In this document: piece after piece, positions 414 to 4,322 of the stretch
Layout of the letters: every line of letters starts with the position of its first letter
How positions within the stretch are numbered: position 1 is the first letter of the stretch
Source of the DNA: a virus
Lineage: Duplodnaviria; Heunggongvirae; Uroviricota; Caudoviricetes
Reading direction: 5' to 3' (one strand)
IMG/VR virus record: IMGVR_UViG_2609459856_000002
DNA: 4,322 bases
Made by a program: the position numbers and the translations under genes
The notes under the pieces: generated by a model
What the model was told of the DNA's origin: nothing
Seen by the model: the letters and a program-made list of their open reading frames with translations, nothing else
Database searches by the model: none

Positions 414-1810
414 GCACAAAATTTTATACCCTGCTGACGGATATTGGCGCGGCGAAACTTGCCAGCGCCGCCGCGCTCGGTGTGCCTTTAAAAATTACCC
501 ATATGGCGGTCGGCGATGGCGGCGGAACATTACCAACGCCGGACGCAAAGCAGACAGCACTGGTAAATGAGAAACGCCGGGCTGCGCTGAATATGCTCTA
601 TATCGACCCGCAGAACAGCAGCCAGATTATTGCTGAACAGGTGATCCCTGAAAACGAGGGCGGTTGGTGGATACGTGAAGTGGGCTTGTTTGATGAGTCC
701 GGGGCATTGATTGCCGTGGGTAACTGCCCGGAAAGCTATAAGCCGCAACTGGCTGAAGGCAGTGGGCGTACCCAGACCGTGCGCATGGTGCTGATTACCA
801 GCAGTACGGACAATATCATCCTGAAAATCGACCCTGCTGTAGTGCTGGCAACCCGCAAGTATGTGGATGACAAGGCACTGGAGCTGAAGGTGTACGTGGA
901 TGACCTGATAGCAAAACATCTTGCCGCACTGGACCCGCATTCACAGTATGCACCCAAAGAAAGTCCGACATTTACCGGAACCCCCAAAGCGCCAACGCCA
1001 GCGGCGGGGAATAATACCACTCAGCTTGCGACCACCGCATTTGTTCAGGCGGCACTGACGGCCCTGATTAATGGTGCGCCAGCCACGCTGGACACGCTGA
1101 AAGAAATAGCCGCAGCCATTAACAATGACCCGAAATTCAGTACCACCATTAACAATGCGCTGGCACTGAAAGCGCCGCTGTCGAGTCCGGCACTCACCGG
1201 AACGCCAACAGCCCCCACGGCGGCGCAGTCGGTCAACAATACACAGATTGCCACTACGGCTTTTGTGAAATCGGCGATTGCGGCAATGGTGGGTTCTGCA
1301 CCTGCGGCACTGGATACACTGAACGAACTGGCGGCGGCACTGGGGAATGATCCGAACTTTGCCACGACAATGCTTAATGCGCTGGCAGGTAAACAACCGC
1401 TGGACAATACGCTGACTAATTTGAGTGGAAAGGATGTAGCTGGTCTTCTCACATACCTTGGTTTGGGAGAAGCGGCAAAAAGGAATGTGGGGACAGGGAC
1501 GAATCAGATACCTGATATGGGTAGCTTCACGCTTTCTGTTTCAGGTACTGGATATCAAAAATTACCATCTGGTTTTATTCTTCAGTGGGGCTCAATCGGC
1601 GCACCAGGCATTGCACAGGATGTGGTAACCCATTTTCCGATTGCATTTCCAAACAGATGTCTGCGTGTTTTGGTCTCACAAGACTACACACCAGATAGCG
1701 GGGCTGTTGGTTATATTGCCTGTGCAGGTTTTAGTCCCGACCCGGTTAAATTTATATCCAGAGCCAGTACTCCTGGCCTCGGCGCTTCATTTTTAGCGTT
1801 AGGCTGTTAA
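410..1810 (+). CDS. Tail fibre protein (P2 gpH-like): constant N-terminal part (codons 1-349) fused to the currently expressed variable C-terminal cassette (codons 351-466)
   Basis: 466-aa ORF. The N-terminus [18 protein letters not shown]...HMAVGDGGG...AEGSGR has the hallmark pattern of P2 gpH-family fibre N-termini. There is an internal Ala/Thr-rich tandem repeat. The left crossover site falls in codon 350, so sequence downstream of 1459 belongs to the invertible segment. The C-terminal part carries a [14 protein letters not shown] motif that I recall from fibre tip domains. Confidence 0.9.
962..1402 (+). repeat. Intragenic tandem duplication, 2 x ~74 codons, in the tail fibre shaft (962..1183 and 1184..1402)
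   Basis: Protein repeats [73 protein letters not shown] and [73 protein letters not shown] align end to end. The DNA copies have diverged, so the duplication is old. It resembles the repeat unit common in P2-type fibre shafts. Confidence 0.6.
1446..1471. other. Left crossover site for the DNA invertase (gix/cix/pix/hix-like, 26 bp): TTCTCACATACC-TT-GGTTTGGGAGAA
   Basis: Two 12-bp half-sites with dyad symmetry (TTCTCaCAtACC versus the reverse complement TTCTCcCAaACC) flank a 2-bp core TT at 1458-1459. This matches the known architecture and TTCTC/TTATC...AAACC half-site pattern of Hin/Gin/Cin/Pin sites. A partner site lies in inverted orientation at 3314..3339. Confidence 0.75.
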
Positions 1811-1831
1811 TTTAGCTATATGGAGTGAAAA

Positions 1832-2272
1832 ATGAATTACATATATTCCGCGACTACAAACTCTTTCTATCCGCTGGAGATGAAAGAGGATTACACTCAA
1901 GCTGACTCATGGCCAGATGATGCTGTTGAAGTTGATGAGCAAGTGTATATTGAGTTTTCCGGATTACCACCAAAAGGAAAAATCCGTATCGCTGGAGAAA
2001 ATGGTTTTCCTGCATGGTCTGAAATTCCACCACCAACACATGAGGAACAGATTGCTGCAGCCGAACTGGAAAAGCAGCAACTGATTAATCAGGCCAACGA
2101 TTATATGAACAGTAAACAATGGCCTGGTAAAGCGGCTATTGGTCGTCTGAAAGGTGAGGAACTGGCGCAATATAATTTGTGGCTGGATTATCTGGACGCA
2201 CTGGAACTGGTTGATACCTCCAGTGCTCTAGATATTGAATGGCCTACGCCTCCGGCAGTTCAGGCCAGATGA
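1832..2272 (+). CDS. Tail fibre assembly protein (chaperone), cassette currently in the expressed orientation
   Basis: 146-aa ORF directly downstream of the fibre gene, with a GGAG Shine-Dalgarno at 1822-1825 six nt before the ATG. The C-terminus ...LDYLDALELVDTSSALDIEWPTPP is the conserved C-terminal signature of phage tail-fibre assembly (Tfa) proteins. Confidence 0.85.
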   Translation: MNYIYSATTNSFYPLEMKEDYTQADSWPDDAVEVDEQVYIEFSGLPPKGKIRIAGENGFPAWSEIPPPTHEEQIAAAELEKQQLINQANDYMNSKQWPGKAAIGRLKGEELAQYNLWLDYLDALELVDTSSALDIEWPTPPAVQAR

Positions 2273-2846
2273 CATTCGGCGCGGTGCTGGTATCTGTTGC
2301 CGTCACTGCGTCAATGTAATCCAGCACAGCGTTAAGTCGGGTGGTTTCTGCCTGCGTCAGCTTCCGTCCGGCCTGTAGTTTCAGTTGAATCAGACTAATG
2401 GAAGCCATTGCTGCATCAATCAGTGACTGGCGCAGTGCTTCTGCCGCGTCTACTGCGGCATTATGCTGTGCCTCAGTATCTGTCACCCATTTCTCACCAT
2501 CCCATTCATCGTATGGCGTTAACGGGGCGATAGTGGTCGTATTTTCAGGATAATCACCCGGACCTGTGATTTCTTTCGATTCTCCTGTTTCGGTGCTATA
2601 AACGATTTCACCGCGATGGTCTGGCACATATTCCCATGAGTTTAAATCCATCGAACGGCAGATAGCATAACCCGCCTTATGTGTGCCAGGGGCATCTAAA
2701 CAGGAATATGCAGGGATACCGACACCAATGGCAAGATATTCATTTGAAGTGGAAATATATTCCCGAGTTTCACCATCATAGTTATAGACGGTAATATTCC
2801 CCGCCTTCGTGGCAATAAGCTCGCTATTTAATACGGCGTTATCCAT
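2244..2846 (-). CDS. Tail fibre assembly protein (chaperone), alternate cassette in the silent orientation
   Basis: 200-aa ORF on the - strand. The C-terminus ...LDYIDAVTATDTSTAPNVIWPELPEA shares the Tfa signature with the + strand chaperone. Its ATG overlaps the stop of the upstream fibre cassette by one base (TAATG on the - strand at 2848-2844). Confidence 0.8.
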   Translation of the reverse strand: MDNAVLNSELIATKAGNITVYNYDGETREYISTSNEYLAIGVGIPAYSCLDAPGTHKAGYAICRSMDLNSWEYVPDHRGEIVYSTETGESKEITGPGDYPENTTTIAPLTPYDEWDGEKWVTDTEAQHNAAVDAAEALRQSLIDAAMASISLIQLKLQAGRKLTQAETTRLNAVLDYIDAVTATDTSTAPNVIWPELPEA

Positions 2847-3367
2847 TATGCAGCCCTCACGATAAAGTTAAATGCAATATTTCGTGGACGGGTTTCACTC
2901 CCGCCAGTATTACCGATACTCCCTCGTGAATGAAGTGTCGGTGATGGGATCAGACTCCCTCCTGTATTTGTGGCATCAAGTCCCCGTCCTTGTGTGTATG
3001 TCTTTTTGAAAATCGTAGCCAGTTCCCATTCATCTTTTGTGTCGTAACCATCATTGGCAACAACAATATGACGGTGCTTTTCCAGCATCCCAGCCTGAAG
3101 GCTCAATAAAGCACGTCCTGCATCAATACCGCGCCCGTCATCCCAGCCACGAATAAACTCACCGCGTAAATCAGGTAATTTATTTGCCGGGTAAGCCTTT
3201 GCCAGTTTCGGGTATTCTTCAGCAGAAAAAGGAGCACCGTTGCATTTCAGCCAGCCTGTTGGAGGTGTCTCAGAAGGCCACGGAACAGGCGCACCAATAG
3301 GTAATGCTGAACCTTCTCCCAAACCAACGTTTATGAAAGTGCAGAGATAATGGCTAACTGGCATCAT
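2846..3367 (-). CDS. Alternative tail fibre C-terminal cassette (Sv'), silent in this orientation; the functional part is 2846..3325, and codons upstream of the crossover lie outside the segment
   Basis: The - strand ORF ends ...ETRPRNIAFNFIVRAA and contains DLRGEFIRGWDDGRG, closely resembling the C-terminal collar-type domain of Mu S / P1 S-type fibres as I recall them (ending NIAFNYIVRLA). It has no constant N-terminal domain of its own. It is in frame with the fibre constant region across the crossover site: after inversion the junction would read ...[18 protein letters not shown].... Confidence 0.8.
   Translation of the reverse strand: MMPVSHYLCTFINVGLGEGSALPIGAPVPWPSETPPTGWLKCNGAPFSAEEYPKLAKAYPANKLPDLRGEFIRGWDDGRGIDAGRALLSLQAGMLEKHRHIVVANDGYDTKDEWELATIFKKTYTQGRGLDATNTGGSLIPSPTLHSRGSIGNTGGSETRPRNIAFNFIVRAA
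3314..3339. other. Right crossover site for the DNA invertase (26 bp): TTCTCCCAAACC-AA-CGTTTATGAAAG
   Basis: The reverse complement of 3313..3327 is identical to 1458..1472 (TTGGTTTGGGAGAAG, 15/15). The inner half-site TTCTCCCAAACC matches the family consensus; the outer half-site (reverse complement CTTTCATAAACG) is degenerate. It lies 55 bp upstream of the invertase ATG. Confidence 0.7.
3346..3351 (+). promoter_or_regulatory. Candidate -10 hexamer (GATAAT) for the invertase promoter
   Basis: GATAAT lies 44 bp upstream of the invertase ATG and 7 bp downstream of the right crossover site. Any -35 element at standard spacing would overlap the crossover site; that region (AACCAA) is a poor match to TTGACA. 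Sequence-only guess. Confidence 0.25.
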
Positions 3368-3394
3368 CCCCGGTTTTTATTCAGGGGATTGATC

Positions 3395-3961
3395 ATGCTT
3401 ATTGGCTATGTACGCGTGTCAACAAATGACCAGAACACCGATTTGCAACGTAATGCACTGAACTGCGCGGGATGTGAGCGGATTTTTGAGGACAAAATCA
3501 GTGGTACTAAGTCCGACAGACCGGGGCTTAAAAAACTGCTCAGGACACTATCGGCAGGTGACACACTGGTTGTCTGGAAGCTGGACAGGTTGGGGCGCAG
3601 TATGCGGCATCTTGTTACTCTGATAGAAGAGTTGCGCCAGCGCGGCGTGAATTTCAGAAGTCTGACTGACAGTATTGATACCAGTACCCCAATGGGCCGT
3701 TTCTTTTTTCATGTCATGGGTGCCCTGGCTGAAATGGAACGCGAACTGATAGTTGAACGTACCAGGGCAGGGCTGGCTGCAGCTCGTGCTAAAGGCAGAG
3801 TAGGTGGACGCCGTCCTAAGTTGACCACCGAACAGTGGGCACAGATTGGACGTTTACTAGAGGTCGGAGAATCAAGACAGCGTATTGCACTGATTTTTGA
3901 TGTGGGCGTTTCTACCATTTATAGAAAATTTCCGGCAAATAAGAGCAGTGAATCCCCCTGA
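3395..3961 (+). CDS. Site-specific DNA invertase, serine recombinase of the Gin/Cin/Pin/Hin family
   Basis: 188-aa product starting MLIGYVRVSTNDQNTDLQRNAL, with the catalytic serine at residue 9 (codon 3419-3421). Conserved blocks VVWKLDRLGRS, SLTDSIDTSTPMGRFFFHVMGALAEMERELIVERT and GRVGGRRPKL, plus a C-terminal helix-turn-helix, are near-identical in pattern to Gin/Pin. Shine-Dalgarno AGGGGA at 3383-3388. The ORF track starts at 3350 (MANWHH...), but family N-termini begin at MLIGY, so 3395 is the likely start. Confidence 0.93.
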   Translation: MLIGYVRVSTNDQNTDLQRNALNCAGCERIFEDKISGTKSDRPGLKKLLRTLSAGDTLVVWKLDRLGRSMRHLVTLIEELRQRGVNFRSLTDSIDTSTPMGRFFFHVMGALAEMERELIVERTRAGLAAARAKGRVGGRRPKLTTEQWAQIGRLLEVGESRQRIALIFDVGVSTIYRKFPANKSSESP

Positions 3962-4009: not shown

Positions 4010-4027
4010 TGTGTGAATAACGGTACA
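4010..4027 (+). promoter_or_regulatory. P2 late-promoter-like activator dyad (TGT-N12-ACA) upstream of the tail sheath gene
   Basis: TGTGTGAATAACGGTACA is an exact TGT-N12-ACA, the motif described at about -55 in Ogr/Delta-activated late promoters of P2/P4/186. It sits about 77-94 bp upstream of the sheath ATG, with a -35-like TTGTCA at 4043-4048 and a weak -10-like CAACAT at 4063-4068. The spacing is plausible but unverified. Confidence 0.4.
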
Positions 4028-4103: not shown

Positions 4104-4322
4104 ATGGCTCAGGATTACCACCACGGGGTGCGCGTTGTTGAAGTCAACGAAGGCACCCGATCCATTACCACGGTGAGCACCGCCATCGTGGGTATGGTCT
4201 GCACGGGCGATGATGCCGATACAAAAATGTTTCCTCTTAATAAACCCGTGCTGATCACTGATGTGCTGACTGCCAGCGGTAAAGCGGGTGAGTCCGGTAC
4301 TCTGGCCCGTTCGCTGGATGCC
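4104..4322 (+). CDS. Tail sheath protein (P2 gpFI-like), 3'-partial (runs off the window end)
   Basis: ATG at 4104 is preceded by CAGGAGG (4088-4094). The frame is open for 73 codons to the window end: [54 protein letters not shown].... This closely resembles the N-terminus of P2 FI-family sheath proteins (MSDYHHGVQVLEINEGTR...[12 protein letters not shown]...[10 protein letters not shown] as I recall it). It is absent from the ORF track only because there is no stop in the window. Confidence 0.85.

What the first reader, a model, noticed from the sequence alone, without database searches (positions are those of the whole stretch)
3314..3351. Right crossover site is asymmetric and overlaps the probable invertase promoter
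The inner half-site is a perfect TTCTCCCAAACC, but the outer half-site is degenerate (about 7 of 12 match the other half). The only plausible -10 element for the invertase (GATAAT, 3346-3351) is 7 bp away, so a -35 would lie within the site. Invertase binding at this site could therefore repress its own transcription, and the weak outer half-site could tune inversion frequency. Both are inferences.
Basis: inference. Interest (0 to 1): 0.45.

Follow-up and report, generated by a model that had tools for sequence, protein, structure and literature searches.

The report
Tail-fibre switch site abutting invertase promoter

Summary
The sequence facts hold. A 26-bp crossover site lies at 3314-3339 (TTCTCCCAAACC AA CGTTTATGAAAG). 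Its partner lies at 1446-1471. The outer half matches the inner half at 7 of 12 positions. GATAAT sits at 3346-3351.

The promoter assignment does not hold. Only 13 of 113 related loci keep the final T of GATAAT; most read GATAAC, GGTAAC, AATAAC or GATTAC. Mu, e14 and YP3 have no such element.

A different layout is conserved in 20 of 37 diverged lineages, including Mu gixR-gin and E. coli K-12 e14 pix-pinE:
- the site;
- a -35-like (A/G)TGnnn that starts on the site's last base (3339-3344);
- a 17-nt unconserved spacer;
- TGgCAnnnT (3359-3367, an extended -10);
- a GC-rich stretch and T-run;
- the start codon at 3395.

The predicted start of transcription is about 3373-3374, not 3358. A recombinational enhancer homologous to the one annotated in P1 cin lies at 3413-3484.

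The outer half-site scores within the range of half-sites of the Mu and P1 systems, so the asymmetry is normal for this family. Autoregulation by the invertase is geometrically possible but untested. Overall this is an ordinary member of a well-known family, with a corrected promoter.

The parts
1446..1471 (+). Left crossover site inside the tail-fibre gene: outer half TTCTCACATACC, core TT (1458-1459), inner half GGTTTGGGAGAA.
   Evidence: The inner half is the exact reverse complement of 3314-3325. It lies at the join between the constant and variable parts of the tail-fibre ORF 410-1810.
1459..3326 (.). Invertible segment between the two core dinucleotides. It carries one tail-fibre C-terminus plus Tfa on the + strand, and an alternative Tfa' (2244-2846) and fibre C-terminus (2846 to about 3325) on the - strand.
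   Evidence: ORFs. Pfam Gp53-like_C, Caudo_TAP (twice) and Collar. In E. coli genomes, homology to the window often begins at 3311-3313, at the edge of the site.
3314..3339 (+). Right (invertase-proximal) crossover site: inner half 3314-3325 TTCTCCCAAACC, core AA 3326-3327, outer half 3328-3339 CGTTTATGAAAG.
   Evidence: CCTTCTCCCAAACCAA (3312-3327) is identical to the e14 P-segment repeat reported in PMC12529663. Family weight-matrix scores are 17.6 bits (inner) and 11.0 bits (outer). G3339 is private to the window: 1 of 113 loci, all others having A.
3339..3344 (+). -35-like hexamer GTGCAG (ATGCAG in close relatives). Its first base is the last base of the crossover site.
   Evidence: The TG at hexamer positions 2-3 shows 88% mean pairwise identity over 17 lineages, against 34% for positions 4-6 and 40% for the spacer. 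The distal sites of Mu and of the window lack this TG.
3346..3351 (+). It lies inside the unconserved 17-nt spacer (3345-3361) and is not supported as the promoter.
   Evidence: At this position 113 loci read GATAAC 37, GGTAAC 16, GATAAT 13, AATAAC 11, GATTAC 10, or unrelated sequence. Weight-matrix score 0.2-0.6 bits.
3359..3367 (+). Extended -10 element TGgCATCAT (TG 3359-3360, hexamer CATCAT 3362-3367).
   Evidence: TGGCA lies exactly 33 nt after the core in 20 of 37 lineages chosen without promoter criteria. T1, G2, G3, C4, A5 and T9 are invariant in 38 aligned sequences, while positions 6-8 vary. It is the top weight-matrix hit in 3250-3400.
3368..3378 (+). GC-rich stretch CCCCGG followed by a T-run. 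The predicted start of transcription is about 3373-3374.
   Evidence: The start is inferred from the position of the -10. In 17 of 17 lineages a GC-rich stretch (3-6 G/C in the first 6 nt) precedes a T-run that starts 5-7 nt after the -10. No start site has been mapped.
3384..3388 (+). Shine-Dalgarno sequence GGGGA, 6 nt before the ATG at 3395.
   Evidence: Sequence. Homologues Cin and Gin start at the same MLIGY codon.
3395..3961 (+). Serine DNA invertase gene (188 aa, Gin/Cin/Pin type, Ser9 in VRVSTNDQ).
   Evidence: Pfam Resolvase (2.5e-53) plus HTH_7 (1.2e-14). Gin structure 3uj3, E = 1.4e-92. 79% amino-acid identity to P1 Cin and 75% to a Mu-type Gin (phage Mu_3F6).
3413..3484 (+). Probable recombinational enhancer inside the invertase gene, with Fis-like sites GTGTCAACAAATGAC (3416-3430) and GCGCGGGATGTGAGC (3465-3479).
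   Evidence: Aligns with the enhancer annotated in P1 cin, nt 19-90, at 56 of 72 identities. The two Fis-like 15-mers match P1 at 13 and 14 of 15. From the site centre to the proximal centre is about 96.5 bp.

Best explanation
Shown from sequence and homology: 3314-3339 is the invertase-proximal crossover site of a Gin/Pin-family tail-fibre inversion switch in a P2-like prophage. A serine invertase would bind each 12-bp half-site and exchange strands at the central AA/TT with the partner site at 1446-1471. The enhancer inside its own gene (3413-3484) would assist.

Inferred from conservation: the site is fused to a weak sigma-70 promoter of the extended -10 type. The -35-like hexamer GTGCAG (3339-3344) begins on the last base pair of the site. 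A 17-nt spacer follows, then TGgCATCAT (3359-3367). Transcription would start near 3373-3374 and give a leader of about 21 nt with a free Shine-Dalgarno sequence before the ATG at 3395. GATAAT (3346-3351) is spacer sequence that happens to resemble a -10 in this lineage.

Inferred from geometry only: an invertase dimer on the site would cover about -60 to -35 and touch the upstream edge of the promoter. The promoter lies inside the roughly 97-bp loop between the site and the enhancer. Invertase binding and recombination-complex assembly could therefore interfere with transcription, and the reverse. The direction and size of any effect are unknown.
For: - Site and partner. The inner half plus core is identical to the e14 P-segment repeat.
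- Invertase identity.
- Enhancer homology to the enhancer annotated in P1.
- Promoter position: of 37 lineages (<80% identical downstream of the core, chosen only for having a site and an invertase start), 20 have TGGCA exactly 33 nt after the core.
- Promoter conservation: across 17 such lineages the spacer shows 40% pairwise identity. The -35 TG shows 88%, and A(-11) and T(-7) 100%. Positions -10 to -8 vary (62%). This is the pattern expected for sigma-70 recognition.
- Same layout in Mu gixR-gin, YP3 and K-12 e14 pix-pinE.
- The e14 segment inverts in K-12 under standard growth, so pinE is expressed from a defective prophage (PMC4272514).
- Length changes of 1 nt occur only in the leader (25, 26 or 27 nt), never in the spacer.
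- Lineage L040 has lost the TG extension but has TTGCAT as its -35. A second invertase class has TTGCCN-17 nt-TAACTT abutting the site in the same way.
- The distal sites lack the flanking TG.
- The annotated Cin binding region in P1 extends 1-4 bp beyond the 26-bp core.
Against: - No start site has been mapped here or found in the literature that could be reached.
- In the window the promoter scores only 4.98 bits, below the median best score of shuffled sequence. Its -35 matches 2 of 6 positions. The stricter scan finds nothing.
- Lineages were partly selected on TGGCA, so the invariance of those five bases in the 17-lineage set is by construction.
- The fixed spacing could partly reflect a constraint on the site-to-enhancer distance rather than on the promoter.
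- C at -12 is non-consensus yet invariant, which the promoter reading does not explain.
- In 6 of 37 lineages TGGCA lies 9-21 bp further from the site, and 9 lack it altogether, so the overlap is not universal.
- Repression is not implied by position: the monomer on the outer half-site would be centred near -40.5, where class II activators bind (established knowledge).
Confidence: 0.65

Rival explanations
1. GATAAT (3346-3351) is the invertase -10, the -35 lies within the crossover site around 3323-3328, and transcription starts near 3358. Invertase bound to the site then directly occludes the promoter.
For: GATAAT matches TATAAT at 5 of 6 positions, with A at position 2 and T at position 6. 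Its -10 sub-score (5.07 bits) is higher than that of CATCAT (2.9 bits). It could act as a minor, lineage-specific second promoter. A start at 3358 would also place the GC-rich stretch in the mRNA, allowing the weak pairing with the Shine-Dalgarno region seen.
Against: The essential final T is present in only 13 of 113 relatives. There is no equivalent element in Mu, e14 or YP3, which share the rest of the layout. The -35 candidates match 1-2 of 6 positions, there is no TG extension, and the total score is 0.2-0.6 bits.
Confidence: 0.1
2. There is no dedicated promoter in 3339-3394. The invertase is made from transcripts that start upstream, either in the invertible segment or by read-through from the late tail-fibre operon. 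The conserved motifs serve another purpose, such as a leader element or part of a terminator.
For: No promoter passes single-sequence thresholds. A terminator-like hairpin with a T-run is called at 3356-3375. The stretch from the -10 to the ATG folds somewhat better than shuffles in 17 lineages (mean z about -1.3).
Against: The stretch from the -35 to the T-run shows no consistent stability across lineages (z near 0). RNAalifold finds no consensus structure in 38 sequences. There is no Rfam match. No + strand promoter-like site lies between 2272 and 3314. The e14 segment inverts in a defective prophage that has no late transcription programme. The conservation pattern (TG, A-11, T-7, free -10 to -8) is that of a promoter, not of a helix.
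Confidence: 0.1
3. TGGCA is the -24 element of a sigma-54 promoter (TGGCAC-N5-TTGC).
For: TGGCA(C/T) is invariant. In 18 of 38 aligned sequences GC stands at the expected -12 position. One lineage (L072) reads TGGCACAATTCTTGCT, a full consensus match.
Against: The window and its closest relatives have GG, not GC, at the -12 position. GC is present in only 47% of sequences, whereas it is nearly invariant in real sigma-54 promoters (established knowledge). The invariant T at motif position 9 has no role in sigma-54 recognition.
Confidence: 0.03
4. TGGCAT is conserved because its complement, ATGCCA, is a start codon for a reverse-strand ORF. That ORF would read through the site into the silent tail-fibre C-terminus (ORF 2846-3367 on the - strand).
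For: In the window and in Mu this ATG is in frame with the silent fibre segment. GeneMark extended the Mu S' ORF past the G-segment boundary.
Against: In-frame stop codons interrupt this reading in 8 of 18 lineages that keep the motif.
Confidence: 0.02

Closest known systems
E. coli K-12 cryptic prophage e14: P-segment site (pix) and pinE
   Same: The inner half plus core (CCTTCTCCCAAACCAA) is identical. The outer half is CGTTTATGAAAA. The join is the same: ATGAAG, a 17-nt spacer, TGgCATCAT, then the pinE start. The invertible segment is likewise flanked by tail-fibre and Tfa genes.
   Different: The window has G instead of A at the last base of the site. Its spacer sequence differs and happens to read GATAAT. 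It sits in an apparently intact P2-like tail module (gpI, fibre, sheath) rather than a decayed lambdoid remnant.
Phage Mu: gixR and gin
   Same: Gene order is invertible segment, site, then invertase transcribed away from it. TGGCATGAT lies 33 nt after the core, ATGGTC/ATGGTT starts on the last base of gixR, and the leader is 26 nt. The invertase is 75% identical to that of a Mu-type phage (Mu_3F6).
   Different: In Mu the 34-bp repeats make both gix sites identical over all 26 bp, so there is no inner/outer asymmetry between the two sites. In the window only the inner halves and the core are shared.
Phage P1: cixL and cin
   Same: The invertase is 79% identical. The enhancer is annotated at the same place in the gene. 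cixL also has an outer half that departs from consensus (CAATCCTAAACC, 8.8 bits).
   Different: cin is transcribed towards the C segment. cixL overlaps the 3' end of cin, not its promoter, and the promoters predicted for cin lie upstream, unrelated to any cix site.
Tn3 / gamma-delta resolvase and res
   Same: A serine recombinase of the same fold (1gdt, 2gm4) whose recombination site overlaps its own promoter region. Resolvase represses tnpR and tnpA (established knowledge, recalled and not verified here).
   Different: res has three dimer-binding sites and no Fis enhancer, and it resolves rather than inverts. Repression has been demonstrated there and is untested here.
Salmonella hixL and hin
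   Same: A 26-bp site about 100 bp from a two-site Fis enhancer inside the invertase gene (PMC3798978). I recall reports that Hin lowers its own expression through hixL, but could not verify this in the papers available.
   Different: hin lies inside the invertible segment, and the switch moves a flagellin promoter rather than tail-fibre coding ends.

Membership tests
Fis-dependent DNA invertase systems (Gin/Cin/Pin/Hin) | Small serine recombinase with an N-terminal resolvase catalytic domain, an active-site serine and a C-terminal helix-turn-helix domain | tested here: met
   Pfam Resolvase 2.5e-53 and HTH_7 1.2e-14. VRVSTNDQ with Ser9. Gin structure 3uj3, E = 1.4e-92 over residues 1-184.
Fis-dependent DNA invertase systems (Gin/Cin/Pin/Hin) | Two 26-bp sites in inverted orientation, each with 12-bp half-sites around a 2-bp core, the cores being identical when the sites are aligned | tested here: met
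   1446-1471 and 3314-3339. The cores are TT and AA on the + strand. This is the longest inverted repeat in the window.
Fis-dependent DNA invertase systems (Gin/Cin/Pin/Hin) | Recombinational enhancer with two Fis sites in the 5' part of the invertase gene, about 100 bp from the nearby site | tested here: met
   By homology only. 3413-3484 aligns with the enhancer annotated in P1 (56 of 72 identities). The two Fis-like 15-mers are conserved at 13 and 14 of 15. The proximal centre is 96.5 bp from the site centre. Fis binding itself is not testable here.
Fis-dependent DNA invertase systems (Gin/Cin/Pin/Hin) | The segment actually inverts | not testable with these tools
   The window shows a single orientation. 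Indirect support: contigs of relatives repeatedly end in or next to the site. The near-identical e14 system inverts in K-12 (PMC4272514; PMC12529663).
Sigma-70 promoter of the extended -10 type | TG at -15/-14, A at -11 and T at -7 | tested here: met
   TGgCATCAT at 3359-3367. These four bases are invariant in 38 aligned relatives, while -10 to -8 vary.
Sigma-70 promoter of the extended -10 type | -35 element at 16-18 bp | tested here: inconclusive
   GTGCAG at 17 nt matches 2 of 6 positions. The TG of that hexamer is conserved (88% pairwise). Extended -10 promoters tolerate a poor -35 (established knowledge).
Sigma-70 promoter of the extended -10 type | Transcription starts 6-9 nt downstream of the -10 | not testable with these tools
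   No start-site data could be obtained: supplements of the E. coli start-site papers were not held or lacked pinE.
Self-repressed serine recombinase (Tn3/gamma-delta res type) | The recombinase binding site overlaps its own promoter | tested here: inconclusive
   The 26-bp core shares 1 bp with the -35-like hexamer. The annotated Cin binding region in P1 extends 1-4 bp beyond the core. There is no footprint for this site.
Self-repressed serine recombinase (Tn3/gamma-delta res type) | The recombinase lowers transcription of its own gene | not testable with these tools
   Needs a reporter assay with and without invertase.
Sigma-54 promoter | GG and GC separated by 10 nt (TGGCAC-N5-TTGC) | tested here: not met
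   The window reads TGGCATCATCCCCGG, with GG at the -12 position. Only 18 of 38 relatives have GC there.

The most novel reading that the evidence does not exclude
The crossover site, the invertase promoter and the Fis enhancer form one compact unit in fixed register. The promoter lies inside the roughly 97-bp loop that must close to build the recombination complex. Site-to-gene distances across lineages fall on a lattice of about 10.4 bp (38, 59, 68, 79, 90, 121 nt). Transcription of the invertase gene and DNA inversion would then exclude each other. The conserved GC-rich stretch and T-run at the predicted start would tie invertase synthesis to growth phase or nucleotide supply, in step with Fis abundance.
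Probability: 0.15. Interest if true: 0.5.

Novelty: new member of a known kind. Interest (0 to 1): 0.25.

Why it matters
It matters little for new biology. Tail-fibre inversion switches of this family have been studied since the 1980s. The 131-nt stretch holding this site, promoter and gene start has a match in 1411 of 5426 complete E. coli genomes.

The useful outcome is a correction. Anyone mapping or engineering invertase expression in these prophages should target TGgCATCAT and the base pair shared by the site and the -35. GATAAT is a look-alike found in this lineage. The conserved join also gives a clean, testable case of a recombination site and a promoter competing for one base pair: A favours the site, T favours the promoter, and the window's G favours neither.

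Tried and rejected
- Consensus RNA hairpin in the leader: RNAalifold on 38 sequences gave no structure. Single-sequence folds show only a modest tendency of the GC-rich stretch to pair with the Shine-Dalgarno region (mean z about -1.3).
- Terminator at 3356-3375 shielding the invertase from late read-through: called in the window. The equivalent stretch shows no consistent stability in 17 lineages (z near 0).
- Sigma-54 promoter: rejected.
- Reverse-strand ORF starting at ATGCCA: stop codons in 8 of 18 lineages.
- Known RNA family: none in 3200-3520 at E <= 1.
The Johnson 2015 review and the Plasterk 1983 and 1985 papers are not held.
- Public E. coli K-12 start-site tables for pinE: supplements were not held or had no entry.
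- Reading the Salmonella hixL-hin interval: the one locus with the hixL-matching sequence has a different context.

Full report
**What the window is.** The 4322 bases hold the tail end of a P2-like prophage morphogenesis block.
- The 3' part of baseplate gene I lies at 9-413 (TIGR01634).
- A tail-fibre gene lies at 410-1810 (Phage_tail_fib and Gp53-like_C), followed by a fibre assembly gene at 1832-2272.
- On the opposite strand lie a second assembly gene (2244-2846) and a second fibre C-terminus (2846 to about 3325, Collar domain).
- A 188-aa serine recombinase gene lies at 3395-3961, and the start of a tail sheath gene at 4104.
- The recombinase has Resolvase and HTH_7 domains. It matches the Gin crystal-structure sequence at E = 1.4e-92. 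It is 79% identical to P1 Cin and 75% identical to the Gin of a Mu-type phage, Mu_3F6.
- The best phage match over the whole window is a P2-like element (93.7% over 83%).

**Checking the observation.**
- The right site is 3314-3339: TTCTCCCAAACC, AA, CGTTTATGAAAG.
- The left site is 1446-1471: TTCTCACATACC, TT, GGTTTGGGAGAA.
- The inner halves are exact inverted copies and the cores are compatible. The pair is the longest inverted repeat in the window.
- The outer half matches the inner half at 7 of 12 positions.
- GATAAT is at 3346-3351.
- CCTTCTCCCAAACCAA (3312-3327) is identical to the repeat reported for the e14 P segment (PMC12529663).
- Many E. coli genomes share the invertase side of the window but lose similarity at 3311-3313, at the edge of the site. 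This is what shuffling at a crossover point produces.

**Is the asymmetry unusual?** I built a weight matrix from the inner and outer halves of 31 diverged lineages.
- The window's inner half scores 17.6 bits and its outer half 11.0 bits.
- The outer half of its closest relatives (TTTTCATAAACG) scores 13.5.
- The median is 11.6 for outer halves and 13.8 for inner halves.
- Of the five mismatches between the two halves, three fall at positions 3, 6 and 7, which vary in this family. One falls at position 12, where C and G are equally common among outer halves.
- The one unusual base is G at 3339. All 112 other loci with this layout have A there. The exact window variant occurs in only one public viral contig, probably the source.
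- The site is therefore asymmetric, but ordinarily so.

**Where is the promoter?** Single-sequence prediction is weak.
- The consensus scan finds nothing in 3200-3500.
- A rough sigma-70 weight matrix, built from recalled textbook frequencies, ranks GTGCAG-17 nt-TGgCATCAT first at 4.98 bits and the GATAAT candidates at 0.2-0.6 bits. Both lie below the median best score of shuffled sequence, 6.17.

I therefore collected 160 related loci from genomes and viral contigs, plus records for Mu, P1, YP3, ENT90, SJ46 and K-12 e14.
- At the window's GATAAT position, 113 loci read GATAAC 37, GGTAAC 16, GATAAT 13, AATAAC 11, GATTAC 10, or unrelated sequence. The T that a -10 cannot do without is usually absent.
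- I chose 37 lineages only for having a crossover site and an invertase start, each under 80% identical to the others downstream of the core. In 20 of them TGGCA lies exactly 33 nt after the core.
- In 17 such lineages the 14 variable spacer bases show 40% mean pairwise identity, and -35 positions 4-6 show 34%. The TG at -35 positions 2-3 shows 88%. The T at -7 is invariant. Positions -10 to -8 vary freely (62%).
- TGG and CA are invariant in that set by construction, since the lineages were picked on TGGCA. The -35 TG and the -7 T were not selected for.
- This pattern is the footprint of a sigma-70 promoter of the extended -10 type: TG, A at -11 and T at -7 held, the rest free, and a spacer of fixed length with free sequence.
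- The same layout is present in Mu (gixR, ATGGTC, 17 nt, TGgCATGAT, gin) and in K-12 e14 (pix, ATGAAG, 17 nt, TGgCATCAT, pinE).
- One-nucleotide length changes occur in the leader (25, 26 or 27 nt) but never in the spacer.
- Lineage L040 has lost the TG extension and has TTGCAT as its -35. A second invertase class carries TTGCCN-17 nt-TAACTT abutting the site in the same way.
- The distal sites of Mu and of the window lack the flanking TG. That TG therefore belongs to the invertase-proximal side, not to invertase binding in general.

**Resulting anatomy.**
- The -35-like hexamer is 3339-3344. Its first base is the last base of the site.
- The spacer is 3345-3361 and contains GATAAT.
- The TG extension is 3359-3360 and the -10 hexamer 3362-3367.
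- A GC-rich stretch lies at 3368-3373 and a T-run starts at 3374.
- The predicted start of transcription is about 3373-3374, the Shine-Dalgarno sequence 3384-3388, and the ATG 3395.
- Relative to that start, the site spans about -60 to -35.
- The segment 3413-3484 aligns with the enhancer annotated in P1 cin and keeps both Fis-like 15-mers.
- The promoter therefore sits within the roughly 97-bp stretch between the site centre and the proximal Fis-like site. This is the same short loop described for hixL and its enhancer (PMC3798978).

**Mechanism: what is shown and what is inferred.**
- Shown by sequence and homology: a Gin/Pin-type switch with its two sites, invertase and enhancer.
- Inferred from conservation: the promoter assignment.
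- Inferred from geometry only: any regulatory coupling.

The annotated Cin binding region in P1 reaches 1-4 bp beyond the 26-bp core. Bound invertase here would plausibly touch 3340-3343, the conserved TG of the -35. That could hinder RNA polymerase, as resolvase does at res (recalled knowledge). However, the monomer on the outer half would be centred near -40.5, where class II activators sit, so the sign of any effect is open. In 6 of the 37 lineages TGGCA lies 9-21 bp further from the site, and in 9 it is absent, so the overlap is not obligatory. The e14 segment inverts in K-12 under ordinary growth. This shows the invertase is expressed without a phage late programme (PMC4272514).

**Rivals tested.**
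- Sigma-54 promoter: the window has GG where GC is required, and only 18 of 38 relatives have GC.
- Reverse-strand start codon (ATGCCA): in-frame stop codons in 8 of 18 lineages.
- Conserved leader hairpin: no consensus structure and only a modest single-sequence tendency.
- Terminator at 3356-3375: no consistent stability in other lineages.
- Known RNA family: none.

**Comparison with what is known, and verdict.** The feature is a member of the Fis-dependent invertase family and meets all sequence-testable criteria. Its nearest relatives are e14 pix-pinE and Mu gixR-gin, with which it shares the site-promoter join. P1 differs because cin is transcribed towards the segment. I could not retrieve the early gin, pin or hin papers or the Johnson review to see whether this promoter was mapped. 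My recollection that Hin, like resolvase, limits its own synthesis through its site is unverified. The finding is a new member of a known kind. Interest is low to moderate.

Noticed in passing
window 3326-3395; loci L002-L164: The distance from the core of the invertase-proximal site to the invertase start codon falls into classes of 38, 59, 67-69, 77-80, 89-90 and 120-122 nt over 37 lineages. Circular statistics give R = 0.95 at a period of about 10.3-10.5 bp, p about 0.002 against a uniform spread, with classes defined after the fact. This suggests a helical-phase constraint on the short loop between the site and the enhancer.
   Followed up: partly
window 3339: G here is private to the window: 1 of 113 loci, found otherwise only in viral contig L170. 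All others have A, which is both the last base of the half-site (GAnAA) and the first base of the -35. Class-2 loci and L040 have T there, which gives a better -35 and a worse half-site. G suits neither role.
   Followed up: partly
window 3368-3381; 17 lineages: In all 17 lineages a GC-rich stretch (3-6 G/C in the first 6 nt after the -10) is followed by a T-run that begins 5-7 nt after the -10. That is where transcription should start. The arrangement recalls supercoiling- or nucleotide-sensitive promoters, but this was not tested.
   Followed up: no
L004, L134, L111, L120 (proximal sites): These loci carry rearranged sites. L004 has 16 nt (GGTATGCGAGAAGACC, a left-site outer half plus flank) inserted after the core. 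In L134 the outer half is replaced by GGTATGCGAGAA. In L111 and L120 the inner half is replaced, with the junction exactly at the core. These look like products of recombination with secondary sites.
   Followed up: no
L009, L015, L022, L035, L038, L042, L050, L064, L073, L075, L153 and others: At least 15 genome or viral contigs end inside the crossover site or within a few nucleotides of it. This is expected if both orientations were present in the sequenced populations and the assembly forked there.
   Followed up: partly
window 3350-3394: The ATG within GATAATGG opens a 15-codon in-frame extension of the invertase ORF (listed as 3350-3961, 203 aa). It exists only in the GATAAT variants, lacks a Shine-Dalgarno sequence, and lies upstream of the predicted transcription start. 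Homologues start at MLIGY.
   Followed up: partly
window 4010-4027: TGT-N12-ACA lies 77 nt upstream of the tail sheath start (4104). It resembles the activator-binding dyad of P2-type late promoters. That consensus is recalled and was not tested.
   Followed up: no
window 2244-2272: The two convergent fibre assembly ORFs (1832-2272 on the + strand, 2244-2846 on the - strand) overlap tail to tail by 29 nt. A nearby 22-nt inverted repeat (2182-2203 / 2304-2325, 82%) reflects their related C-termini.
   Followed up: no
window 3290-3420: This 131-nt stretch (site, promoter and start of the invertase gene) has a match in 1411 of 5426 complete E. coli genomes, with up to 6 copies per genome. The best identity is 98.5%; none is identical.
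   Followed up: yes
L171 9373-9398 (- strand): A viral contig carries the 26-bp sequence I recall as Salmonella hixL (TTCTTGAAAACCAAGGTTTTTGATAA), but in a different context, with no invertase gene immediately downstream.
   Followed up: no
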